DNA from: a virus
Lineage: Duplodnaviria; Heunggongvirae; Uroviricota; Caudoviricetes
Strand: one strand, 5' to 3'
DNA: 11,936 bases
IMG/VR virus record: IMGVR_UViG_2681813004_000015
Location: 1-11,936 of that record
Shown here: piece after piece, positions 1,032 through 11,936 of the stretch
Numbering within the stretch: the first letter of the stretch is position 1
Layout: every line of letters begins with the position of its first letter
The notes under the pieces: model-generated
What the model saw: the letters and a program-made list of their open reading frames with translations, nothing else
Told to the model about the DNA's origin: nothing
Database searches by the model: none
Made by a program: the position numbers and the translations under genes

Positions 1032-1514
1032 ATGTCAGGACCCCCGAAAACCCCGCCACGCCTGCATTTGATACGAGGCAACCCCTCAAAGCGCCCCGTT
1101 AAAGACCCCAAAAAAACCGCTAAAAAGGATGAAAAAGGTCTTCCTAAAATTCCGCAGCATTTAGGGGCACAGGGGAAGTACTGGTTCAGGCGAATGGCGG
1201 AAGAGCTGAATGCGGAAGGGATCATTTCTCAGCTTGATGCGCGTGCGCTCGAGTTACTGGTGGAAGCCTACACCGAATATCGGCATCACTGCGAAACACT
1301 GGATGTTGAGGGGTATACCTATCGCACGGAAACGCAGAGTGGTGATGTACTGATTAAGGCGCACCCCGCGGCGGCAATGAAAGCGGATGCCTGGAAGCGG
1401 ATCCGGGCGATGCTTGCAGAGTTTGGTATGTCACCGGCAAGCCGGGCGAAAGTAAATACCACCGGACCGGATGATGTTGATCCGCTGGCGGAGCTTTTAA
1501 AAGCGAGAGACTGA
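1032..1514 (+). CDS. terS: terminase small subunit (P27-family-like)
   Basis: 160-aa product with basic N-terminus and the conserved middle region of P27-type small terminases. Stop overlaps the terL start (TGATG, 1512-1516), indicating translational coupling. Confidence 0.8.
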   Translation: MSGPPKTPPRLHLIRGNPSKRPVKDPKKTAKKDEKGLPKIPQHLGAQGKYWFRRMAEELNAEGIISQLDARALELLVEAYTEYRHHCETLDVEGYTYRTETQSGDVLIKAHPAAAMKADAWKRIRAMLAEFGMSPASRAKVNTTGPDDVDPLAELLKARD

Positions 1515-2707
1515 TGGCAAAAGTGGCTGACGGGATCCGCTACGCCGAACGTGTTGTTGCAGGAGAAATTGTCGCTGGCGAATTTGTCCGTCTGGCCTGC
1601 CAGCGTTTTCTTGATGATCTGAAGTACGGCGAAGAGCGGGGGATTTATTTCAGTGAACCCCGTGCGCAGCACATCCTGAATTTCTACAAATTTGTGCCCC
1701 ATGTAAAAGGGGCGCTGGCAGGTCAGCCCATTGAGTTGATGGACTGGCATGTTTTTATCCTCATAAATATTTTTGGTTTTGTCATTCCGCTGGTGAATGA
1801 AGAGACCGGGGAAGTTGTCATGCGCAGCGATGGCAGCGGACGCCCGGTGATGGTGCGCCGGTTCCGGACGGCGTACAACGAAGTCGCCCGTAAAAACGCA
1901 AAATCAACCCTGTCATCGGGTATCGGTCTTTATATGACGGGGGCAGATGGTGAAGGCGGTGCTGAGGTGTATTCAGCCGCAACCACGCGTGACCAGGCCA
2001 GAATCGTGTTTGAAGACGCCAAAAATATGGTCAGAAAAGCCCGGTCGACACTCGGGCGGTTGTTTGATTTCAACAAGCTGGCGATTTACCAGGAGCAGAG
2101 CGCATCAAAATTTGAACCGCTTTCCTCGGATGCAAACAACCTGGACGGTCTGAACATCCACTGCGCCATTATTGATGAGCTGCATGCACATAAAACCCGC
2201 GACGTGTGGGACGTTCTGGAAACGGCAACCGGTGCCCGTCTGCAGTCCCTGTTATTTGGTATCACCACGGCGGGCTTTAACAAGGAAGGAATTTGTTACG
2301 AGCAACGCGATTACGCCATCAAGGTATTGCGAGGCTATAACAGTGACGTGGAGGGCGCGGTAAAAGACGACTCCTACTTTGCGATTATTTACACGCTCGA
2401 TGAGGGAGATGATCCGTTTGATGAAACGGTCTGGCAGAAAGCGAATCCGGGCCTGGGCATCTGTAAACGCTGGGATGATCTGCGTCGTCTGGCGAAAAAA
2501 GCGAAGGAACAGGTTTCAGCGCGGGTGAATTTTTTTACCAAGAAAGTAACATCACGCCGTAACAACAGTGCGACCTGTCCTGATTTTTTTAGTAACCAAA
2601 TGAAAGAAAAAGATTTTTTCTTGTTCGTCGTTTTTGTTTTTTCTGGAAGGTTCTGGCTGTTTTCATCATTTGTGTATTGCACTGTGTATTGCAAAAACGG
2701 GTTATAA
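1514..2707 (+). pseudogene. terL: terminase large subunit, 3'-truncated: ATPase domain only, terminase-like to about nt 2545
   Basis: N-terminal ~345 aa read as an HK97-family TerL ATPase domain. After ...ARVNFFTKK the frame runs through T-rich low-complexity codons (FFLFVVFVF...) into the int upstream region. No nuclease domain is present. Confidence 0.8.
2671..2693. repeat. two direct copies of TGTGTATTGCA separated by 1 nt, 20 bp upstream of int
   Basis: Exact 11-mer at 2671-2681 and 2683-2693. Lies in the AT-rich segment between the terL break and int, next to a short palindrome GAAAAAGATTTTTC at ~2607-2620. Candidate integrase arm-type or regulatory sites. Confidence 0.4.
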
Positions 2708-2712
2708 ATCAC

Positions 2713-3921
2713 ATGGCGCTAAACAAACTGAGCGATAAAAAACTTCGTTCCCTGCTTGGGCGCAGGAGTGAGAGGCAGGAAACCATCGCTGATGGTAACG
2801 GGCTTTCGGTACGGGTCAGTAAATACGGATGTGTTAGTTTTGTTTTCTTTTACAGACTGGCGGGAAGGGGAACCGCGCCCATCTGGCTGACACTTGGAAA
2901 ATATCCTGATCTGAGTCTCAAATCAGCGAGAGAGATGCGCGATCAGTGTCGAACCTGGCTTGCGGAGGGCAGAGATCCACGGATTCAGATAAAAATTGAA
3001 CGGGAAGCCACTTTGCAACCTGTTACCGTTCGTGAGGCACTTGAATACTGGCTTGATAATTATGCAATGGATAAGCGTAGGGGAGCAGAACATATCAGGC
3101 AGTGCTTTGGTAAACATATTTATCCGGTGATTGGTCATGTACCACTTAGTGATTGCTCTATATCTATGTGGATCAAGTGTTTTGACAAAATAAAAAAAGT
3201 AGCACCTGTACAGGCCGGAGCTTTGTTGCGTATATCAAAACAGGCGCTTAAATTTTGTAGGGTAAGAAAATACGCGATTAGTCATGAAATTGATGATCTT
3301 GAGGTCTGTGATGTGGGAAAAAAGTCTGCGCGAAGAAGCAGGGTTTTAACAGATGATGAAATCAGAGATTTATGGCGAAGTATTAATACTGATTATGACA
3401 ATCACGAATTATCATATGAAAACCGAATTATTTTACGTTTCCTGGTAGTTTTTGGTTGTCGACTGTCAGAAGTATTACTGTCGTCCTGGGTAGAGTGGGA
3501 TTTTGATAAGAAATTATGGCGCGTTCCCGCTGATCATAGCAAAAATGGCAGGGAAATAATCAGACCGATTCCTGATGGCATGTTTAACTGGTTAGTTACG
3601 TTAAAAAAAATAACAGGTAACAAAGAAAATGTGATTGGGTTTGATATGCGTCAGTGTACGGCAAGCGTAACTATCGGTAAGACATGGAAAAGGATGAAAC
3701 ACTCGGAAAAATGGACGGCGCATGATATGCGAAGAGTGTTTGCCACAAAGCTAAGTGATCATGGTTTTGAACATAATGTGGTTGAACAGTTGCTTGGGCA
3801 CACATTAGGCGGTGTTGCCGGGGTTTATAACAGAAGTCAGTATATGGACAGAAAAAAAGAAGCTATGAACTGGTGGTACGACTATCTGAATAAGCTAATT
3901 AGTGGTGACGGTAATGATTGA
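2713..3921 (+). CDS. int: tyrosine integrase, P4-integrase family
   Basis: N-terminal arm-binding domain pattern (GLSVRVSKYG...FVFFYRL...LTLGKYPDLSLKSAREMR) and C-terminal catalytic residues (R...HDMRR...LLGH...Y). ATG at 2713 (MALNKLSD) preferred over the upstream ATG at 2677. Confidence 0.92.
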   Translation: MALNKLSDKKLRSLLGRRSERQETIADGNGLSVRVSKYGCVSFVFFYRLAGRGTAPIWLTLGKYPDLSLKSAREMRDQCRTWLAEGRDPRIQIKIEREATLQPVTVREALEYWLDNYAMDKRRGAEHIRQCFGKHIYPVIGHVPLSDCSISMWIKCFDKIKKVAPVQAGALLRISKQALKFCRVRKYAISHEIDDLEVCDVGKKSARRSRVLTDDEIRDLWRSINTDYDNHELSYENRIILRFLVVFGCRLSEVLLSSWVEWDFDKKLWRVPADHSKNGREIIRPIPDGMFNWLVTLKKITGNKENVIGFDMRQCTASVTIGKTWKRMKHSEKWTAHDMRRVFATKLSDHGFEHNVVEQLLGHTLGGVAGVYNRSQYMDRKKEAMNWWYDYLNKLISGDGND

Positions 3922-5282: not shown

Positions 5283-5318
5283 GGTAAAAACAAAAAGCGC
5301 CCCGTTACCGGAGCGCCC
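5283..5318 (-). terminator. intrinsic terminator on the minus strand
   Basis: Minus-strand hairpin (GCGCUCC / GGGGCGC, loop GGUAAC; plus 5297-5316) followed by UUUUUGUUUUU (plus 5286-5296). Confidence 0.5.
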
Positions 5319-5360
5319 TTGCGAACAATTAACCTACTGCGCAAAAAATGAATCTGTGCG
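5286..5360 (-). ncRNA. candidate small RNA (~75 nt) bounded by promoter-like element and terminator; hypothetical
   Basis: Minus strand has an extended -10 (TGATATAAT, plus 5366-5374) and the terminator at 5283-5318 about 75 nt downstream. No convincing ORF or RBS in between. Purely structural inference. Confidence 0.25.
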
Positions 5361-5365
5361 GGGGG

Positions 5366-5395
5366 ATTATATCAACCGTGGTCGAAATGACCATA
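5366..5395 (-). promoter_or_regulatory. sigma70-like promoter with extended -10 on the minus strand
   Basis: Minus strand reads ...TGGTCA-(15/16 nt)-TGATATAAT; perfect TATAAT preceded by TG at the extended -10 position; weak -35. Confidence 0.35.
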
Positions 5396-5410
5396 GTTGC
5401 AGGATAACAG

Positions 5411-5442
5411 GCAAAACAAAGGCCACCCGCTACGGTGGCCCC
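5411..5442 (-). terminator. intrinsic terminator downstream of the minus-strand repressor gene
   Basis: Perfect 7-bp stem GGCCACC / GGTGGCC (5421-5427 / 5434-5440) with 6-nt loop; on the minus strand followed by UUUGUUUUG. Confidence 0.55.
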
Positions 5443-5542
5443 TCGACACAAGCACACGTTATCCCCAACGCATGAGCATAACCAACAATGCCACATTTAC
5501 GGCTGGTGGGCAATGTGATCAGTGTGCTGGCTTGCTGGTGGG

Positions 5543-5848
5543 TTATTCCTGCTCTTTGGCCTTGCGCCGCTGGAGTTCTTCACGCGCGACGGCAACAAGT
5601 TGCCCGATCTCCTCGGCAGCTTTGACTCCGATTTTTTCCACCTGAGCCAGTGCATCAAGTGAAGAAACTAGGGGATTTTCTCCGCTTCCTTCTGCCTGGC
5701 GGCGGGCGATCTCTCCGCGCATGGCGGTTACTATGAATCCGGCGTTGCTTTCGCCGTCCAATTTTACGGATTCCATGCCCTCCATAACATCGTGGGGAAC
5801 TCGGACGGTGGTCAATTGTGATTTAGCGTTTTTGTTGGTAGTCGCCAT
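5543..5848 (-). CDS. putative ribbon-helix-helix (Arc/Mnt/CopG-like) transcriptional repressor
   Basis: 101-aa ORF with GGAG RBS 8 nt upstream of ATG (5848). Segment RVPHDVMEGMESVKLDGESNAGFIVTAMRGEI fits the RHH beta-strand/helix pattern of Arc/Mnt. Transcribed divergently from the replication operon across an operator-bearing promoter. Confidence 0.6.
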   Translation of the reverse strand: MATTNKNAKSQLTTVRVPHDVMEGMESVKLDGESNAGFIVTAMRGEIARRQAEGSGENPLVSSLDALAQVEKIGVKAAEEIGQLVAVAREELQRRKAKEQE

Positions 5849-5868
5849 AACTGAAACTCCTCAAATTT

Positions 5869-5948
5869 GGTGTGTTTCAGTATACACAAAAAAGAAATAC
5901 AAAAAAGGCTTGACGTGTGTTTCACTCCTAAATAACATGAAACACACC
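5869..5948 (+). promoter_or_regulatory. promoter for the rightward operon overlapped by operator repeats (GTGTGTTTCA motif)
   Basis: -35 TTGACG (5910-5915), 17-bp spacer, -10 TAACAT (5933-5938). Motif GGTGTGTTTCA at 5869-5879, GTGTGTTTCA at 5915-5924 and its inverted copy TGAAACACACC at 5938-5948; the latter two form a palindrome bracketing the -10. Confidence 0.5.
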
Positions 5949-6044
5949 AAAGGTTTTATTGAAATACAAACGACGAAACCCCGCACTGTTGGAGCAGTAA
6001 CGGGGCTTCTAACCACCAACGATAGCAAGAGTATCGAGGTAGCT

Positions 6045-6248
6045 ATGAGAAATCATACCACACACCCGCAAGGGCGGGACTCGCACAACCTGAATAAATA
6101 CATCTGGCGTTTTATCGCCCTGAGCACGGCACAACCGCGCGTGATTACCATTGAGGCCACCAGCGAACAGGAAGCACGCCAGCAATCTCCTGATGGCTGT
6201 GTGATGGTATTCGCCTCCCGTATTCGTCAGGAGGTGCACCATGATTAA
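6045..6248 (+). CDS. hypothetical small protein (67 aa), first gene of the rightward operon
   Basis: ATG 6045 preceded by GAGGTAG RBS; the longer track ORF from 5721 overlaps the repressor gene and promoter. Stop overlaps the next start. Confidence 0.5.
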   Translation: MRNHTTHPQGRDSHNLNKYIWRFIALSTAQPRVITIEATSEQEARQQSPDGCVMVFASRIRQEVHHD

Positions 6249-6453
6249 TCTGTCACTTACCGACCTTAACCGCATTCAGTTTCGTGAGAAATTTACCGGG
6301 CAGCTACTGGTCAATGTGGATAAAGGTCGCGTGGTGTGTAATTACCACCTGCCAGATGAAGCAATTGTCGCAACAAGGGAATCATTACAGGAACTCGCAG
6401 AACGTGCCGGAATGATTAATGCGAATATTCAGGGGGTGAGCCATGTGCAATAA
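6241..6453 (+). CDS. hypothetical small protein (70 aa)
   Basis: AGGAGG RBS immediately upstream of ATG 6241; overlaps the previous ORF by 8 nt and the next by 11 nt, indicating coupling. Confidence 0.55.
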   Translation: MINLSLTDLNRIQFREKFTGQLLVNVDKGRVVCNYHLPDEAIVATRESLQELAERAGMINANIQGVSHVQ

Positions 6454-6772
6454 CACCCGTCCGGACGCAGCCGCCGAAGCTATCAGAACGCTGATGCACG
6501 CGCTGATTGATATTTCATGCACGGCAGCAACCGCAGAAAAACACATTACCAGAGAGACCGAAGCTATCAGAACGCTGATGCACGCGCTGATTGATATTTC
6601 ATGCACGGCAGCAACCGCAGAAAAACACATTACCAGAGAGACGGAATATACAGGGGCAATAATCCCGCATTCGCTGGTCTACACACAGCTTACCGCTGAT
6701 ATGGCGCTGAATGAGGCTAAAGCCATCCTGATTGCTGATTGTGAAAATGGCGGGGGCGATTATGCGAAATAA
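6443..6772 (+). CDS. hypothetical protein (109 aa) containing a 28-residue exact tandem repeat
   Basis: GGGGTGA RBS upstream of ATG 6443. Residues EAIRTLMHALIDISCTAATAEKHITRET occur twice in tandem, encoded by an 84-bp direct repeat. Confidence 0.55.
   Translation: MCNNTRPDAAAEAIRTLMHALIDISCTAATAEKHITRETEAIRTLMHALIDISCTAATAEKHITRETEYTGAIIPHSLVYTQLTADMALNEAKAILIADCENGGGDYAK
6476..6643 (+). repeat. 84-bp tandem direct repeat, two copies, in-frame within a small ORF
   Basis: 6476-6559 and 6560-6643 are identical except for the final base (83/84). Confidence 0.95.
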
Positions 6773-6980
6773 ACATGATATTGAAGACCTGGCATTTGAA
6801 GCCCTGCACTCTGCGAAAAAAATCAGGGAAGTCGTCAATATGTGGATGAACAGCCTTAGCACCGATAAATCCGATAGCAGAGAAGAAATTCTTATTTCTT
6901 TGTTGTTAGACCTGGCAAATACACAGGTTTCTCTGACATCTGATATTGAGCTCGCCGCTAAAAAGCTGCCTCTGGAGTAA
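6762..6980 (+). CDS. hypothetical small protein (~72 aa)
   Basis: ATG 6762 with G-rich RBS; overlaps the stop of the preceding ORF. The track ORF starts earlier at 6732, so the start is uncertain. Confidence 0.45.
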   Translation: MRNKHDIEDLAFEALHSAKKIREVVNMWMNSLSTDKSDSREEILISLLLDLANTQVSLTSDIELAAKKLPLE

Positions 6981-6986
6981 AAAAAC

Positions 6987-7301
6987 ATGAAAAAGAAAAA
7001 TTCTGGCTTTACTGCCAGCGGTCACGCTCGGCCTGAAATCCGCCCCGGTGATATTTTCCGGGATAAATACGGCAGCACGATAACGATTAAAACCGTCGAT
7101 GATTTTCGTGTGACCTATATCCGCGAAGGTTATGCGCATCCCTGCGTGTCGTCACATATGCGCTTTGACAGGGAGTTCACCTTGGTAAGCAAAGCACCAC
7201 CAGCAGAATTAAGCGACATCGACAGAATCATGCGCGTTACAGGAATGGAACGCATTAAGGCAGTACGTGAAATTATTCGTGAACGGGGAAAGGCAAAATG
7301 A
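6987..7301 (+). CDS. hypothetical protein (104 aa), translationally coupled to the replication protein gene
   Basis: GGAG RBS upstream of ATG 6987; its stop overlaps the start of the downstream 707-aa gene (ATGA at 7298-7301). Confidence 0.55.
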   Translation: MKKKNSGFTASGHARPEIRPGDIFRDKYGSTITIKTVDDFRVTYIREGYAHPCVSSHMRFDREFTLVSKAPPAELSDIDRIMRVTGMERIKAVREIIRERGKAK

Positions 7302-9421
7302 AGCGCGCACCAAACTTAAAGCACCAGCCAGCCGACAAAATGACGGAGGTTATCATCTTTGCGGGTAGTGATGCGTGGAGCCATGCGAAAGAGTGGCAGG
7401 AATGGGCAGGTAAACATATTGCCGCCGACAATGTGCCGCCTGTCGTTCTGTCAGATGAACACCTGAAAGATATTACTGGTTATCAAATTATTGATGATAG
7501 CCGTCAGTGTGTGCGTATTTACCGCGCAGGGCACATCACTGAACGTAGCCTCACACAGATCGTCACGTTGCTGGCTGTGGCTGGCGTGAAGACCGTATAC
7601 GAATACGCGGGGATAACTGACACCAGCCCGGCGGATTTATCCGACCAGTTGCCTCGCCTCAAAGACGAATACGAGCGCGGGGAAAGTCTGGTGTTGCCCT
7701 TAAAGAAAAAAATCACAGAAAGCCCGGGTGATGATGAATTAAAGCCCCGCGTTGAAAGCCGCGCCGATGGTGTTTTCTGGGTAACGCCAAAAGTGGATAA
7801 GCAGTCAGGCGAAATTATCCGGCCTGAAACGTGGTTATGCTCCCCGCTTGAGCTACTGGGAACGGGGACAATCGGCAAAGAGCATTACCGCGTGATGCGC
7901 TGGAAAAAGCCAGCAAACCATGACGTCATCACGATGGCGGTTCCGTGCGGTGGCATTGGCGACCGTGACGGCTGGCGGCTGCTGAAAGACCACGGACTGA
8001 ACGTGACAACCAACGGTAAATACAGGGCTATCCTGGCTGACTGGATGCAGTTAAGCGGAAACCATGAGGAATGGCAGTTAAGCACAACAACGGGCTGGCA
8101 TTTTGGCGCGTACATCATGCCGGACGGTTCGGTCATTGGTGATTGCGAAAAGCCAGTCCTGTTTACCGGAAAAACGGCTGCCGTTAATGGTTATTCCGTG
8201 GCAGGAACGGCGGAGGGCTGGCGCGATACCGTGGCGCGACTGGCTGGTGGTAATCCGTCCATGATGCTGGGTGTGGCGGTATCGCTATCCGCACCATTAA
8301 TCGGGCTGGTGGGTGCTGACGGCTTCGGGGTACATCTTTTCGAACAGTCATCAGCAGGGAAAACCACCACACAGAATATCGCATCCAGTTTATGGGGGGA
8401 GCCGGACGCGCAGCGGCTGACCTGGTACGGTACAGCGTTAGGTATCGCCAACGAGGCAGAGGCACACAACGACGGGCTGTTACCCCTGGATGAAATAGGC
8501 CAGGCCGGAAACGCGCGGGAGGTGTCCACATCGGCCTATACGCTGTTTAACGGTTCCGGGAAATTACAGGGGGCGAAGGACGGCGGCAACCGGGAGATAA
8601 AACACTGGCGAACGGTGGCAATCAGTACCGGAGAAATGGACGTTGAAACATTCCTCAAAACGGAAGGGATAAAAGTCAAGGCGGGGCAGCTTGTCCGCCT
8701 GCTTAACGTGCCAATGGAAAAAGCCACACAATTTCACGAATACAGCACCGGAAAGGCGCACGCAGACGCGTTAAAGGATGCCTGGACAGAAAATCACGGG
8801 GCGGCGGGGCGTGAATGGGTTAAATGGCTGGCAGACCATCAGCAGGAGGCAAAGGACACGGTAAGGACATGCCGTGAGCGGTGGCGCAACCTGATACCGG
8901 AGAGCTACGGCGAACAGGTTCACCGTGTGGGGGAGCGATTTGCCATACTGGAGGCCGCGCTTGTGCTTTCAGGTCATGTTACTGGCTGGGATGAGCAGGA
9001 ATGCCGCGATGCCATACAGCATAATTTTAATGCCTGGGTGAAGGAGTTCGGCACGGGTAACAGGGAGTTTAAACAGATGGTTGAACAGGCAGAGGCTTTT
9101 TTAGCGTCGTTCGGATTCAGCAGATACCTTCCGTGGCCCAACACCGACGAGCGTGATTTACCGATTAAAGAGCTTGCCGGATACAGAAAGGGGAGTATCA
9201 GAAACGAAGATGACGAGTTCCGTTTTTACACGTTCCCGCATGTATTTGAGGGTGAGATAGCACAGGGATTTAATCCGTCTCACTTTGCCCGCGTGTTGAG
9301 TGCTGCCGGAATGCTGGAAGCGGGTAACGATCGCCGTTACAAGAAAAAGGCGCTCGGCAAAATTGGGGGGAAGCAGCATGTTTTTTACGTGCTGATGTTC
9401 CAGCCTGAGGCAGAAGATTAA
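7298..9421 (+). CDS. replication protein: P-loop NTPase of the DUF927 / primase-helicase type (PICI pri-rep-like)
   Basis: 707-aa ORF with Walker A (FEQSSAGKTT) and Walker B (GLLPLDEIGQ) motifs. General resemblance to DUF927-type replicative helicase/primase proteins of satellites and plasmids. Immediately followed by iterons. Confidence 0.8.
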   Translation: MKRAPNLKHQPADKMTEVIIFAGSDAWSHAKEWQEWAGKHIAADNVPPVVLSDEHLKDITGYQIIDDSRQCVRIYRAGHITERSLTQIVTLLAVAGVKTVYEYAGITDTSPADLSDQLPRLKDEYERGESLVLPLKKKITESPGDDELKPRVESRADGVFWVTPKVDKQSGEIIRPETWLCSPLELLGTGTIGKEHYRVMRWKKPANHDVITMAVPCGGIGDRDGWRLLKDHGLNVTTNGKYRAILADWMQLSGNHEEWQLSTTTGWHFGAYIMPDGSVIGDCEKPVLFTGKTAAVNGYSVAGTAEGWRDTVARLAGGNPSMMLGVAVSLSAPLIGLVGADGFGVHLFEQSSAGKTTTQNIASSLWGEPDAQRLTWYGTALGIANEAEAHNDGLLPLDEIGQAGNAREVSTSAYTLFNGSGKLQGAKDGGNREIKHWRTVAISTGEMDVETFLKTEGIKVKAGQLVRLLNVPMEKATQFHEYSTGKAHADALKDAWTENHGAAGREWVKWLADHQQEAKDTVRTCRERWRNLIPESYGEQVHRVGERFAILEAALVLSGHVTGWDEQECRDAIQHNFNAWVKEFGTGNREFKQMVEQAEAFLASFGFSRYLPWPNTDERDLPIKELAGYRKGSIRNEDDEFRFYTFPHVFEGEIAQGFNPSHFARVLSAAGMLEAGNDRRYKKKALGKIGGKQHVFYVLMFQPEAED

Positions 9422-10072: not shown

Positions 10073-10354
10073 ATGATTAAAGACAGCAAAGCGGAAGAAC
10101 TGGAGGCTAAAGGGCTGTACCGGAGAGCGGCGGCACGTTGGGCTGATGTTATGTGGCTGGTGAGCACTGACAAGGAGCGCGAACAAGTGGCAAAGCGTCG
10201 CGCGGAATGTATCCGTAAGGCAGCGCGCCAACCAGTCATACCGGATAATTTCGGAATACTGAAAGAGGCCATAAACCGCACACATACCGGGATGGGCTTA
10301 CAGAAACCTGGCGGTGAGATGTTCAGGAACTACCCGAAAAAAAGGGATAATTGA
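10073..10354 (+). CDS. perC: PerC-family transcriptional regulator (Pch-like)
   Basis: N-terminus MIKDSKAEELEAKGLYRRAAARWADVM... matches the PerC/Pch signature. GAGG RBS 6 nt upstream of ATG 10073; the track start at 10061 is GTG. Confidence 0.75.
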   Translation: MIKDSKAEELEAKGLYRRAAARWADVMWLVSTDKEREQVAKRRAECIRKAARQPVIPDNFGILKEAINRTHTGMGLQKPGGEMFRNYPKKRDN

Positions 10355-10399
10355 TAACGGTTGTTAACTGTTTCTGGTATCGTGGCAGCAGGAGGAAAC

Positions 10400-10648
10400 A
10401 TGCCAGTGACATTTGAAGAAGTCCAGCAACATAAAAAGTTTCATGGTTTTGATGATCTGGAAACCACGACAGCAAAAAAATATCGCCGTCTGCTTTCTTC
10501 CGATGCGTTGTTTGTTGTGGATCATCATGATTTTCTGCGCAGCTCACTGACCGGGGAAATTTTCGCAACCAACCGTGAGCAGGTGGAAGCGATGATCGAA
10601 TATCTGTGGAAAATAAGGCGCAGAATGCGTGATCCCGTGAAACGGTAG
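10400..10648 (+). CDS. hypothetical small protein (82 aa) downstream of perC
   Basis: Strong AGGAGG RBS 3 nt upstream of ATG 10400; followed by a strong terminator. A second near-identical copy lies at 11165-11413. Confidence 0.6.
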   Translation: MPVTFEEVQQHKKFHGFDDLETTTAKKYRRLLSSDALFVVDHHDFLRSSLTGEIFATNREQVEAMIEYLWKIRRRMRDPVKR

Positions 10649-10652
10649 AATA

Positions 10653-10687
10653 ATAATGGCCTGGTATTTTCCAGGCCATTATTTTTA
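10653..10687. terminator. strong bidirectional intrinsic terminator
   Basis: Perfect 10-bp stem AATGGCCTGG / CCAGGCCATT (10655-10664 / 10671-10680), loop TATTTT, T-run downstream and A-rich tract upstream. Confidence 0.75.
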
Positions 10688-10735
10688 GAAGTGTTGCTGA
10701 ATGAACATTGCTTTTTTCAGTTCATTTTCTGACAT
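10685..10735 (-). pseudogene. remnant of the 157-aa minus-strand gene: first 14 codons only, then deletion junction
   Basis: 10693-10749 matches 11880-11936, which holds the RBS and first codons (MSENELKKAMFIQQ) of the intact gene at 11449-11922. Here the frame ends after 16 codons at the junction with the terminator. Confidence 0.7.
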
Positions 10736-10809
10736 AGTTCGTTCCTCCTGATTAACGAGCAGAAAATGTACGGAACAGCTTATTTATTTTTTCAGGTTTT
10801 GTAAATTAT

Positions 10810-10896: not shown

Positions 10897-11119
10897 GGAC
10901 GTTTGGGCTGATGTTATGTGGCTGGTGAGCACTGACAAGGAGCGCGAACAAGTGGCAAAGCGTCGCGCGGAATGTATCCGTAAGGCAGCACGCCCACCAG
11001 TCATACCGGATAATTTCGGAATACTGAAAGAGGCCATAAACCGCACACATACCGGGATGGGCTTACAGAAACCTGGCGGTGAGATGTTCAGGAACTACCC
11101 GAAAAAAAGGGATAATTGA
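10897..11119 (+). pseudogene. 5'-truncated second copy of perC (lacks first ~21 codons, RBS and start)
   Basis: Homology to perC begins at the codon for ARWADVM. Upstream is unrelated sequence with a 1-nt insertion at the junction. Longest ORF is the internal-Met fragment 10916-11119, which carries one substitution versus copy A (Q to P). Confidence 0.7.
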
Positions 11120-11164
11120 TAACGGTTGTTAACTGTTTCTGGTATCGTGGCAGCAGGAGGAAAC

Positions 11165-11413
11165 ATGCCAGTGACATTTGAAGAAGTCCAGCAACATAAA
11201 AAGTTTCATGGTTTTGATGATCTGGAAACCACGACAGCAAAAAAATATCGCCGTCTGCTTTCTTCCGATGCGTTGTTTGTTGTGGATCATAATGATTTTC
11301 TGCGCAGCTCACTGACCGGGGAAATTTTCGCAACCAACCGTGAGCAGGTGGAAGCGATGATCGAATATCTGTGGAAAATAAGGCGCAGAATGCGTGATCC
11401 CGTGAAACGGTAG
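11165..11413 (+). CDS. hypothetical small protein (82 aa), second copy
   Basis: Same RBS and ORF as 10400-10648 with one amino-acid difference (H to N). Confidence 0.6.
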   Translation: MPVTFEEVQQHKKFHGFDDLETTTAKKYRRLLSSDALFVVDHNDFLRSSLTGEIFATNREQVEAMIEYLWKIRRRMRDPVKR

Positions 11414-11417
11414 AATA

Positions 11418-11451
11418 ATAATGGCCTGGTATTTTCCAGGCCATTTTTTTA
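11418..11451. terminator. strong bidirectional intrinsic terminator, second copy
   Basis: Stem AATGGCCTGG / CCAGGCCATT (11420-11429 / 11436-11445), loop TATTTT, T-run 11444-11450. Serves the converging genes on both strands. Confidence 0.75.
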
Positions 11452-11922
11452 GAAGTCGATCTCTGTATCGCGATTAAATTCATCGCTAAGGTAAAGTGCT
11501 TCGCTTGGGCATTTTCCGTTTTCCAGTAATGTTTCCCAGAAATCTTTATCGAAACACCCCTCAAGATACAGATAGCGGCAGATGTGAAGTAAATCACTTC
11601 GTGTCCATCCGTGCATGCTGCTACTTGTTACACCATATTCACTTTCTAGTTTATAGAATGTGAGCGCCTCCCGGTCATGCCAGGCTTTGCACAGACGATC
11701 GTATATCTTTTTAGCTTTGTTTTTAGATGTGCCGAAAAACTCTTCGTAAATTTCATGTGGGCGAGTAGGAATGCTTCCGTCGCCATCCTGCAAGAAAGGA
11801 TAAACATCTGCCTCCCAGGCATACACGTAAGAATCGCTGAACTCATCATAGTGTTTACCAAGGTGGAGAATCTGCAATCGTTGCTGAATGAACATTGCTT
11901 TTTTCAGTTCATTTTCTGACAT
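11449..11922 (-). CDS. hypothetical acidic, aromatic-rich protein (157 aa), function unknown
   Basis: Minus-strand ORF with AGGAGG RBS (plus 11931-11936) 8 nt upstream of ATG (11922). Converges on the bidirectional terminator. Rich in D/E and Y/F/W. No family recognised by eye. Confidence 0.7.
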   Translation of the reverse strand: MSENELKKAMFIQQRLQILHLGKHYDEFSDSYVYAWEADVYPFLQDGDGSIPTRPHEIYEEFFGTSKNKAKKIYDRLCKAWHDREALTFYKLESEYGVTSSSMHGWTRSDLLHICRYLYLEGCFDKDFWETLLENGKCPSEALYLSDEFNRDTEIDF

Positions 11923-11936
11923 AGTTCGTTCCTCCT

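What the first reader, a model, noticed from the sequence alone, without database searches (positions are those of the whole stretch)
6045..7301. Five small translationally coupled ORFs of unknown function ahead of the replication gene
ORFs of 67, 70, 109, ~72 and 104 aa overlap start-to-stop by 4-11 nt and sit under the repressor-controlled promoter. None shows a motif recognisable by eye. In satellites this position often holds helper-manipulating factors such as derepressors or replication accessories, so they are candidates for new interference functions. Which of them are real genes is uncertain.
Basis: inference. Interest (0 to 1): 0.5.

Follow-up and report, generated by a model that had tools for sequence, protein, structure and literature searches.

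The report
Early operon of a phage satellite
The five small genes are real and form the standard first part of the replication operon of an E. coli phage satellite (a PICI); two belong to named families (Icd-like and RgdR/DUF4222) and three to catalogued families of unknown function, so the finding is ordinary.

Summary
The five ORFs exist as described. One correction: ORF4 and ORF5 do not overlap; a 6-nt gap separates them. All five are supported as genes. They are intact in related islands, dN/dS is about 0.1-0.55, and the antisense ORFs break in relatives.

Two are not "unknown". ORF1 is an Icd-like protein, related to P1 Icd and to the kil/eta frame of P4. ORF5 is a DUF4222 protein, 54% identical over 71 aa to RgdR (ECs1581) of E. 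coli O157, but without its RGD motif. ORF2, ORF3 and ORF4 fall in PHROG families 340, 5146/2512 and, remotely, 2196. These families recur, in shuffled order and copy number, between the Icd-like gene and the DUF4222 gene of many E. coli PICIs, including EcCICFT073 and the O157 OI-51 island.

The island looks like a capsid-forming PICI inserted in a prophage terL gene, a configuration already published. The promoter carries three exact copies of a 10-mer next to a divergent YlcI/YnfO gene, which fits repressor control.

No homology to P4 epsilon or Cnr, to known defence proteins or to any solved structure was found. The functions of ORF2-4 stay open. Overall this is a new member of a known kind, of low to moderate interest.

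The parts
5543..5848 (-). Divergently transcribed YlcI/YnfO-family gene (101 aa), the candidate repressor of the operon
   Evidence: NCBIfam NF041551 at 3.5e-19 and phrog_6522 at 1.7e-61. Weak match to the Rv0623-like (ribbon-helix-helix type) Pfam PF07704. Repressor activity is inferred, not shown.
5850..5951 (.). Promoter and operator region: -35 TTGACG at 5910-5915, -10 TAACAT at 5933-5938; three exact GTGTGTTTCA 10-mers at 5870-5879 (+), 5915-5924 (+) and 5938-5947 (-)
   Evidence: Promoter scan. The 10-mer has exact copies only here in the window. Inverted repeats I1-I3. The same three-copy arrangement is present in locus L028.
6045..6248 (+). ORF1, 67 aa, Icd-like protein (same family as P1 Icd and the kil/eta frame of P4); first cistron of the operon
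   Evidence: NF033153 at 66.8 bits against a cutoff of 25. phrog_6196 at 3e-45. BLASTP to P1 Icd: 35% over 43 aa, E 9e-7. The P4 138-aa ORF carries the same domain. Found in 12 of 16 related loci from other genera. dN/dS 0.17-0.49.
6241..6453 (+). ORF2, 70 aa, phrog_340 family, function unknown; predicted beta-hairpin plus helix
   Evidence: phrog_340 at 5.5e-23. 35 protein clusters; every source name shown is Escherichia (E. coli or E. albertii); lengths 70, about 85 and about 121 aa, the last a tandem double domain. 89% identical to the homologue in the O157 island (L031). dN/dS 0.18-0.49. AF2 model of low confidence (pLDDT 57).
6443..6772 (+). ORF3, 109 aa, phrog_5146/2512 family, function unknown; all-helical; carries a perfect 84-nt (28-aa) in-frame tandem duplication at 6474-6641
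   Evidence: phrog_5146 at 5.7e-34. 580 protein clusters. Duplication shown and absent from relatives. AF2 gives one long helix, residues 9-102, pLDDT 79. dN/dS 0.12-0.55.
6762..6980 (+). ORF4, 72 aa, narrow E. coli subfamily remotely related to phrog_2196; usually the gene just before the DUF4222 gene; contains an A7 tract at 6816-6822
   Evidence: Only 13 clusters, all at least 85% identical. phrog_2196 at 1.8e-4. hhalign to the phrog_2196-type alignment: 88.7% probability, E 2.5e-6, shared NMWM..L motif. The O157 and CFT073 homologues hit phrog_2196 at up to 1e-42. A8 frameshift in 3 of 9 relatives.
6987..7301 (+). ORF5, 104 aa, DUF4222 / RgdR-family small basic protein; its stop overlaps the primase start (ATGA)
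   Evidence: PF13973 at 67.2 bits against a cutoff of 27. 54% identity over 71 aa to the 99-aa O157 protein with R20-G21-D22, i.e. RgdR/ECs1581 (PMC3378721). The window has P20-G21-D22. Found directly upstream of three replicase types. dN/dS 0.14-0.67.
7298..9421 (+). DUF927 primase/helicase (707 aa), the replication gene the block leads into
   Evidence: PF06048 at 1.4e-45 and phrog_1139 at 1e-173.

Best explanation
The five ORFs are the promoter-proximal cistrons of the early (replication) operon of a Gram-negative phage-inducible chromosomal island. This island appears to be a capsid-forming PICI embedded in the terL gene of a prophage. A sigma-70-type promoter overlaid by operator repeats is probably kept off by the divergent YlcI/YnfO protein. 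When the island is induced, the promoter would drive one transcript through ORF1-ORF5 into the primase gene, and probably on to the SSB gene. Overlapping or closely spaced stops and starts couple translation along the block. ORF1 is an Icd/Kil-type small protein. By homology it would arrest host cell division while the island replicates. As in P1 icd-ant, its translation may also be needed to open translation of the genes behind it. ORF5 is an RgdR-type small basic protein. Its best-studied relative binds DNA without specificity and changes transcription. Its fixed place immediately before the replicase, whatever the replicase type, suggests a regulatory or accessory role tied to the replication module. 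ORF2, ORF3 and ORF4 belong to three small-protein families seen here mainly in PICI-type islands. They behave as exchangeable cassettes, each an SD plus a gene, between the two fixed ends. They most likely bind host, helper or island proteins. Shown here: gene reality, family membership, operon anatomy, cassette shuffling. Inferred: repression by YlcI/YnfO, division arrest, the role of ORF5 in replication or regulation, and any activity of ORF2-4.
For: Anatomy: promoter, SD sites, overlaps of 8, 11, 11 and 4 nt, and no terminator-like site within the five-ORF block. Operators. Island identity: int, two AlpA-like genes, Bro-N, DUF927 primase, SSB and PerC-like genes. Relatives whose primase is 89-99% identical (five of the eight fetched at 97-99%) carry capsid, S78 protease and portal genes downstream; six of the eight sit between terS and a cut terL, one is at ilvG, and one is too short to tell. 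This configuration is described in PMC10111431. ORF1 matches the Icd-like model, P1 Icd and the P4 kil/eta frame. P1 icd is likewise coupled to ant1 by a 4-nt overlap and is annotated as required for ant expression. ORF5 is DUF4222/RgdR. RgdR is reported in all analysed E. coli PICIs (PMC6092414); it binds DNA and activates LEE1 (PMC3378721). The same five families recur in 11 compared loci and in EcCICFT073 in different orders and copy numbers, with stereotyped junctions shared by non-homologous gene pairs. Purifying selection: dN/dS about 0.1-0.55. Antisense ORFs carry stops in relatives. PGAP annotates the same genes in complete genomes.
Against: No experiment bears on this island. The functions of Icd-like and RgdR-like proteins within a PICI life cycle have not been tested in any paper found here. 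ORF5 lacks the RGD arginine that mattered for RgdR activity. ORF4's link to phrog_2196 is remote, and its own subfamily is nearly invariant, so selection on it is poorly measured; 3 of 9 relatives carry an A8 frameshift. Induction of Gram-negative PICIs is reported to depend on the activator AlpA (PMC6092414), so a simple repressor model may be incomplete. The structure predictions gave no functional lead.
Confidence: 0.65

Rival explanations
1. ORF2-4, or some of them, are helper-manipulating factors in the manner of P4 epsilon. They would bind a helper-phage repressor or late-gene regulator to derepress or redirect the helper, which matters for an island sitting inside its helper prophage.
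For: P4 has epsilon and orf151 at the equivalent position between kil and cnr/alpha. The families were not detected by tblastn in 50,697 phage records and were seen here mainly in satellites. Cassette shuffling, domain duplication and domain fusion are typical of fast-evolving interaction proteins.
Against: No sequence similarity to epsilon (PF25738) or to any anti-repressor family. The island already carries a Bro-N anti-repressor-like gene upstream. EcCIEDL933, which carries these families, is reported not to interfere with its helpers.
Confidence: 0.15
2. The Icd-like gene and the small ORFs behind it form a growth-arrest (abortive-infection-like) module. It would fire when an incoming phage protein triggers the island, as reported for an E. 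coli ECOR61 locus.
For: In ECOR61, growth inhibition triggered by phage orf24 was suppressed by transposon insertions in an Icd-like gene (121 aa) and in two overlapping small ORFs directly downstream (61 and 63 aa). Six linked genes including a primase were needed to reconstitute the effect (bioRxiv 10.1101/2023.04.06.535777). That layout is the same as here.
Against: The ECOR61 sequences could not be retrieved, so homology of its small ORFs to ORF2-4 is untested. Insertions in a coupled operon can act by polarity. There are no PADLOC hits. Cell death on satellite activation may simply follow uncontrolled replication (PMC6092414).
Confidence: 0.12
3. ORF5 is mainly a host-directed regulator (a virulence or motility 'moron' like RgdR) rather than a component of the island's own cycle. 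Its position before the replicase would be only historical linkage.
For: RgdR activates LEE1 and represses motility in EHEC and UPEC.
Against: DUF4222 genes sit at the same place in islands of Yersinia, Serratia, Citrobacter, Cedecea and others, whatever the replicase type. ORF5 here lacks the RGD arginine. The gene lies inside an operon expected to be silent until induction.
Confidence: 0.08
4. One or more of the ORFs, ORF4 above all, is not a functional gene in this island. It would be a decaying or spurious frame kept open by chance.
For: The ORF4 subfamily has only 13 near-identical clusters. An A7-to-A8 frameshift occurs in 3 of 9 relatives, and truncated 46-aa products are on record. ORF3 carries a unique 84-nt duplication.
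Against: ORF4 is 97-100% conserved as an intact frame in the other relatives. It has an SD site, occupies the slot held by phrog_2196 genes in other islands, and matches that family by profile. The ORF3 duplication is in frame. Antisense frames are broken in relatives.
Confidence: 0.05

Closest known systems
Early/replication operon of E. coli PICIs EcCICFT073 and the O157 OI-51 (CP-933C) island, which Flockhart et al. and Fillol-Salom et al. link to EcCICFT073-type PICIs and which I take to be the EcCIEDL933-type island
   Same: Same order: divergent YlcI/YnfO gene (absent from the O157 locus L031), Icd-like gene, three to four small overlapping ORFs, DUF4222 (RgdR/C1493), replicase, SSB, PerC-like. 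ORF1 is 94% identical to the CFT073 protein. ORF2 is 89% identical to the O157 protein. The ORF3, ORF4 and ORF5 families are present in both.
   Different: Order and number of the middle cassettes differ. ORF3 and its partner family are fused into a 154-aa protein in O157. ORF4 is a divergent subfamily. ORF5 has a different C-terminal tail and no RGD. The replicase is the DUF927 type rather than a RepA helicase or the 584-aa primase. This island lies in a prophage terL rather than next to roxA.
Left (early) operon of satellite phage P4: kil/eta - epsilon - orf151 - cnr - alpha
   Same: An Icd-like domain protein comes first, then small ORFs, then a roughly 105-aa protein immediately before the primase/helicase.
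   Different: Epsilon (PF25738) and Cnr (DUF5375) are unrelated to ORF2-5. No CI/C4-type RNA was detected in the leader. P4 Kil is part of a longer Ash-domain frame.
P1 immI operon: c4 - icd - ant1/ant2
   Same: ORF1 is directly similar to P1 Icd. A short Icd cistron is translationally coupled to the next gene.
   Different: The downstream genes are not antirepressors. There is no C4 antisense RNA.
RgdR (ECs1581), regulator of LEE and motility in EHEC O157:H7
   Same: DUF4222 core, 54% identity over residues 1-71, K35 conserved, same genomic slot.
   Different: R20 is replaced by P, so there is no RGD. The C-terminal 33 residues are unrelated; the same tail also occurs on a Bro-N protein (P0201).
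ECOR61 Icd-like programmed-cell-death locus (Silas et al., bioRxiv 2023)
   Same: Icd-like gene followed by overlapping small ORFs and a primase.
   Different: The Icd-like protein there has an N-terminal extension (121 aa). Sequence relationship of its small ORFs to ORF2-4 could not be tested.

Membership tests
Icd-like proteins (NCBIfam NF033153; P1 Icd, P4 Kil/Eta C-terminus) | Match to the family profile above its curated cutoff | tested here: met
   66.8 bits against a cutoff of 25, E 1.3e-18, residues 19-62. P1 Icd and the P4 138-aa ORF match the same model.
Icd-like proteins (NCBIfam NF033153; P1 Icd, P4 Kil/Eta C-terminus) | Direct similarity to the founding member, P1 Icd | tested here: met
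   BLASTP: 35% identity over 43 aa, E 9e-7, shared IWRF...E.EAR.Q.PDG motif.
Icd-like proteins (NCBIfam NF033153; P1 Icd, P4 Kil/Eta C-terminus) | Control by an upstream C4/CI-type antisense RNA, as in P1 and P4 | tested here: not met
   No Rfam match at E <= 1 other than a chance terminator-like hit elsewhere. The leader fold has z = -1.8.
Icd-like proteins (NCBIfam NF033153; P1 Icd, P4 Kil/Eta C-terminus) | Inhibition of host cell division | not testable with these tools
   Needs expression in E. coli and microscopy.
RgdR / DUF4222 (Pfam PF13973) | Match to PF13973 above the gathering score | tested here: met
   67.2 bits against a cutoff of 27, residues 16-67.
RgdR / DUF4222 (Pfam PF13973) | RGD motif at residues 20-22, which gave the regulator its name | tested here: not met
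   The window has R19-P20-G21-D22. The O157 protein has T19-R20-G21-D22. Residue 20 affects activity (PMC3378721).
RgdR / DUF4222 (Pfam PF13973) | Position immediately upstream of the PICI replicase | tested here: met
   4-nt overlap with the primase start. Same position in L001, L002, L004, L010, L018-L025, L028-L031 and CFT073.
RgdR / DUF4222 (Pfam PF13973) | Activation of LEE1 / repression of motility; DNA binding | not testable with these tools
   Needs reporter assays and EMSA.
P4 left-operon accessory proteins (epsilon PF25738; Cnr DUF5375) | Profile match of any of ORF2-5 to epsilon or Cnr | tested here: not met
   P4 epsilon and Cnr match their Pfam families strongly. ORF2-5 do not.
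Gram-negative PICI / capsid-forming PICI | int, alpA, primase-replicase and SSB in the canonical order | tested here: met
   Relatives' genes carry Pfam Phage_AlpA.
Gram-negative PICI / capsid-forming PICI | Own capsid, protease and portal genes downstream | tested here: inconclusive
   The contig ends at 11936, before that region. Relatives with 89-99% identical primase carry them.
Helper-embedded PICI (PMC10111431) | [quoted passage not shown] | tested here: met
   Rz-like, HNH and terS genes, then a terL frame (1514-2707) that runs into the island end just before int at 2677. Same junction in L018-L020, L022, L023 and L025.
Known anti-phage defence systems (PADLOC-DB) | Profile match of any ORF | tested here: not met
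   No hits at E <= 0.01.

The most novel reading that the evidence does not exclude
The exchangeable small-ORF cassettes (phrog_340, phrog_5146/24341 and phrog_2196 families) are partners or sensors of the Icd-like effector. Together they would form a satellite-borne module that stops cell growth, or manipulates the helper, in response to specific phage proteins. The stereotyped SD-ATG-stop junctions would serve as recombination joints that let islands swap specificities.
Probability: 0.12. Interest if true: 0.6.

Novelty: new member of a known kind. Interest (0 to 1): 0.25.

Why it matters
As it stands this is routine annotation. It places an anonymous contig in a known class of phage satellite and gives names or family labels to five short genes. 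Two modest points have wider value. First, the genes between the Icd-like gene and the replicase of E. coli PICIs are widespread: parts of this block match 1,720 of 5,426 complete genomes. They are under purifying selection and are shuffled as cassettes, yet no function in the satellite cycle has been shown for any of them, RgdR included. Second, one published screen suggests such a block can cause phage-triggered growth arrest. A systematic deletion study in a tractable PICI would therefore be worthwhile, but this particular window adds no special reason to do it.

Tried and rejected
- Rfam scan of the whole window for C4, isrK or CI-type RNAs in the leader: nothing relevant.
- tblastn of each ORF against 50,697 phage records. 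ORF2-5 gave nothing. ORF1 hit only vB_KppS-Ant, a 16.5-kb record that looks like a cf-PICI.
- PDB sequence searches for ORF1, ORF2, ORF5 and the 154-aa ORF3-type protein: no meaningful hits.
- PADLOC: no hits.
- AlphaFold2 of ORF3 gave a single long helix (pLDDT 79, pTM 0.37), which is useless for fold search.
- AlphaFold2 of ORF2 gave a low-confidence model (pLDDT 57), and Foldseek against PDB found nothing below E = 1.
- Idea that the C-terminal tail of ORF5 co-varies with the replicase type, implying a Cnr-like interaction: rejected. The E. albertii locus combines the other tail type with an 86%-identical DUF927 primase, and L001 combines this tail with a different primase.
- Idea that the long in-frame extension upstream of ORF1 (5721-6044) is an Ash/Eta-like N-terminal domain: no Pfam support. 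Its only ATG before 6045 (at 5937) lies inside the predicted -10 element.
- HMMER search of ORF5 against 1.84 billion representatives: only 64 clusters, nearly all stand-alone small proteins. One DUF4222 + primase zinc-ribbon fusion may be a read-through artefact.
- Retrieval of the ECOR61 contig failed.
Full report
**Observation**

The window carries five consecutive + strand ORFs, followed by a 707-aa DUF927 primase/helicase gene at 7298-9421:
- ORF1, 6045-6248, 67 aa
- ORF2, 6241-6453, 70 aa
- ORF3, 6443-6772, 109 aa
- ORF4, 6762-6980, 72 aa from the ATG
- ORF5, 6987-7301, 104 aa

Stop/start overlaps are 8, 11 and 11 nt. ORF4 and ORF5 are separated by a 6-nt gap rather than overlapping. ORF5 overlaps the primase start by 4 nt (ATGA). 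ORF1-ORF4 and the primase gene have a G-rich Shine-Dalgarno-like run shortly before the start; ORF5 has only a GGAG about 10 nt upstream. A sigma-70-like promoter (TTGACG-17-TAACAT) lies at 5910-5938. The scan found no terminator-like site on the + strand within the five-ORF block; one weak hairpin lies at 8173-8185 inside the primase gene.

**Setting**

The window is a whole 11,936-bp E. coli contig. The exact 109-aa ORF3 product is on record from one contig of that length. The layout is as follows.
- Left of about 2540: prophage late genes (Rz-like, HNH, terS, and a terL frame that runs into foreign sequence).
- Then an island: integrase, two AlpA-like genes and a Bro-N gene.
- A divergent YlcI/YnfO gene, the five ORFs, the primase gene and an SSB gene.
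- PerC-like genes at the right end.

Relatives with an 89-99% identical primase continue into capsid, S78 protease and portal genes. Six of the eight fetched lie at the same terS/terL junction. The island therefore appears to be a capsid-forming PICI in the 'helper-embedded' configuration already described (PMC10111431; cf-PICI preprint).

**Are they genes?**

All five fall into families that recur at the same place in other islands. Clustering the annotated small proteins of 11 loci gave five recurrent families, and every window ORF belongs to one of them.
- Across genera, the Icd-like gene was found in 12 of 16 loci recovered through the primase, and the DUF4222 gene in 10 of 16.
- Pairwise dN/dS values are 0.17-0.49 for ORF1, 0.18-0.49 for ORF2, 0.12-0.55 for ORF3 and 0.14-0.67 for ORF5. 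The sister subfamily of ORF4 gives 0.28.
- The four long antisense ORFs in this stretch carry stop codons in diverged relatives.
- NCBI's pipeline annotates the same genes in complete genomes.

ORF4 is the weakest case. Its own subfamily has 13 clusters, all at least 85% identical. Three of nine relatives have A8 instead of the A7 tract at 6816-6822, which breaks the frame. On the other side, ORF4 matches phrog_2196 at E 1.8e-4. A profile-profile comparison with phrog_2196-type proteins from O157, Yersinia, Rahnella and vB_KppS-Ant gives 88.7% probability. Those proteins occupy the same slot, just before the DUF4222 gene.

**What they are**

ORF1 is an Icd-like protein: NF033153 at 66.8 bits against a cutoff of 25. 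It aligns directly with P1 Icd (E 9e-7). The same domain forms the C-terminal part of the 138-aa P4 ORF in the kil/eta region.

ORF5 is a DUF4222 protein. It is 54% identical over its first 71 residues to the 99-aa O157 protein that carries R20-G21-D22 and K35, which is RgdR/ECs1581.
- RgdR activates the LEE1 promoter, represses motility and binds DNA without specificity in vitro (PMC3378721).
- The window protein has proline at position 20, so the RGD motif is absent.
- Its C-terminal 33 residues are a different basic helix. That same tail also occurs on a Bro-N protein.

ORF2 matches phrog_340. It occurs as 70-aa, about 85-aa and tandem-domain 121-aa forms, and every source name shown for its 35 clusters is Escherichia.

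ORF3 matches phrog_5146/2512, a family of 580 clusters. Members are either about 80 aa or fused to a second family (phrog_24341) in about 154-aa proteins. AlphaFold2 predicts essentially one long helix for ORF3. Its extra length here is a perfect 84-nt in-frame tandem duplication, absent from every relative retrieved, including the best-matching complete E. coli genomes.

**Cassette behaviour**

The two ends of the block are fixed: the Icd-like gene first and the DUF4222 gene last. The DUF4222 gene sits before three different replicase types that share an N-terminal domain. The middle varies:
- window: ORF2-type, ORF3-type, ORF4-type
- L028: ORF3-type, ORF2-type, ORF4-type
- L030: ORF3-type, ORF2-type, the second (phrog_24341-type) family that is fused to ORF3-type proteins elsewhere, then ORF2-type again
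- CFT073: another family, then ORF3-type, that same second family, and a phrog_2196 gene

The junctions are stereotyped, roughly cAGGRGGTGnnCC-ATG-nnn-AATAA. The same junction joins different upstream families to a given downstream gene. The exchanged unit therefore appears to be the SD plus the gene. This also explains the shared C-terminal peptides and the variant C-termini seen among ORF2 homologues.

**Regulation**

Three exact copies of GTGTGTTTCA lie at 5870 (+), 5915 (+) and 5938 (-). The 10-mer has no other exact copy in the window. They bracket the -35 and -10 elements and form inverted repeats. The same arrangement occurs in L028, which has the same 101-aa YlcI/YnfO type. Published work puts AlpA, an activator, at the top of Gram-negative PICI induction. 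No C4/CI-type RNA was found in the leader.

**Mechanism**

My best reading (confidence about 0.65) is an induced early operon with these roles:
- ORF1 arrests division and may act as the leader cistron, as P1 icd does for ant.
- ORF5 is a small nucleic-acid-binding regulator or accessory protein tied to the replication module.
- ORF2-4 are exchangeable interaction proteins.

The closest architectural analogue outside PICIs is the P4 left operon (kil/eta, epsilon, orf151, cnr, alpha). However, epsilon and Cnr belong to other families, so this resembles P4 in layout but ORF2-5 are not members of the P4 families. A screen in E. coli ECOR61 found that an Icd-like gene and two overlapping small ORFs behind it, together with a primase, mediate growth arrest triggered by a phage protein. 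That keeps a growth-arrest or sensing role for ORF2-4 open, but polarity effects and missing sequence data prevent a test here.

**Verdict**

The finding is real but ordinary. It is another allele set of a known, widespread and already annotated gene block. Parts of the wider 1,901-nt stretch 5500-7400, mostly its Icd-like region, match 1,720 of 5,426 complete E. coli genomes, and parts of the ORF2-4 stretch match 647. Two of the five ORFs have family names. What remains unknown is the role of any of these proteins in the satellite's own cycle.

Noticed in passing
window 1514-2707 and 2677-3921: The prophage terL reading frame runs straight into the island end, just before the integrase gene. 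The island is inserted in, and co-oriented with, the helper prophage's large-terminase gene. The same junction occurs in several independent E. coli assemblies.
   Followed up: partly
window 6474-6641: Perfect 84-nt in-frame tandem duplication inside ORF3 (28 aa, four heptads of a predicted long helix). It is found only in this contig and in none of the relatives retrieved, including the best-matching complete genomes. It may be a very recent mutation or an assembly artefact.
   Followed up: partly
window 6816-6822; L020, L021, L025: The A7 tract in ORF4 is A8 in three of nine close relatives, which shifts the frame. This could be slipped-strand variation, decay or homopolymer sequencing error.
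   Followed up: partly
window 6225-6260, 6428-6460, 6745-6775; loci L023, L027, L028, L030, L031, L033: Junctions between the small genes share a consensus (about cAGGRGGTGnnCC-ATG-nnn-AATAA), even between non-homologous gene pairs. This suggests the cassettes are exchanged by recombination just upstream of each Shine-Dalgarno site.
   Followed up: partly
window 5290-5445, minus strand: Two strong terminator-like hairpins (5443-5418 and 5320-5293) with a near-consensus promoter (5393-5366, extended -10) between them. This could specify a roughly 60-nt RNA, or be the remnant of the small DUF3950-type gene that relatives carry here.
   Followed up: no
window 10138-10700 vs 10903-11470; 10693-10749 vs 11880-11936: The PerC-like and phrog_1957 genes are present twice at 99% identity. 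The second PerC-like copy is 5'-truncated. The last 57 nt of the contig repeat 10693-10749. This is either a partial tandem duplication or an assembly artefact at the contig end.
   Followed up: partly
window 5721-6044: The ORF1 reading frame stays open for 108 codons upstream, through the promoter and antisense to the YlcI/YnfO gene. Some genomes annotate longer 'Icd-like' or partial 'ash family' proteins here. No Ash domain is detectable in this window.
   Followed up: partly
P0201 and P0219 (hits of ORF5): One Bro-N protein ends with the same 40-residue tail as ORF5, and one 179-aa protein joins DUF4222 to a primase zinc ribbon. These point to domain swapping, or to a read-through fusion with the downstream primase.
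   Followed up: partly
window 7298-7720 and replicases of L001, L028, L031, L033: Three otherwise different replicases (DUF927 primase, a roughly 600-aa primase, a roughly 470-aa RepA helicase) share a homologous N-terminal domain of about 140 aa (phrog_2850). It always follows the DUF4222 gene.
   Followed up: no
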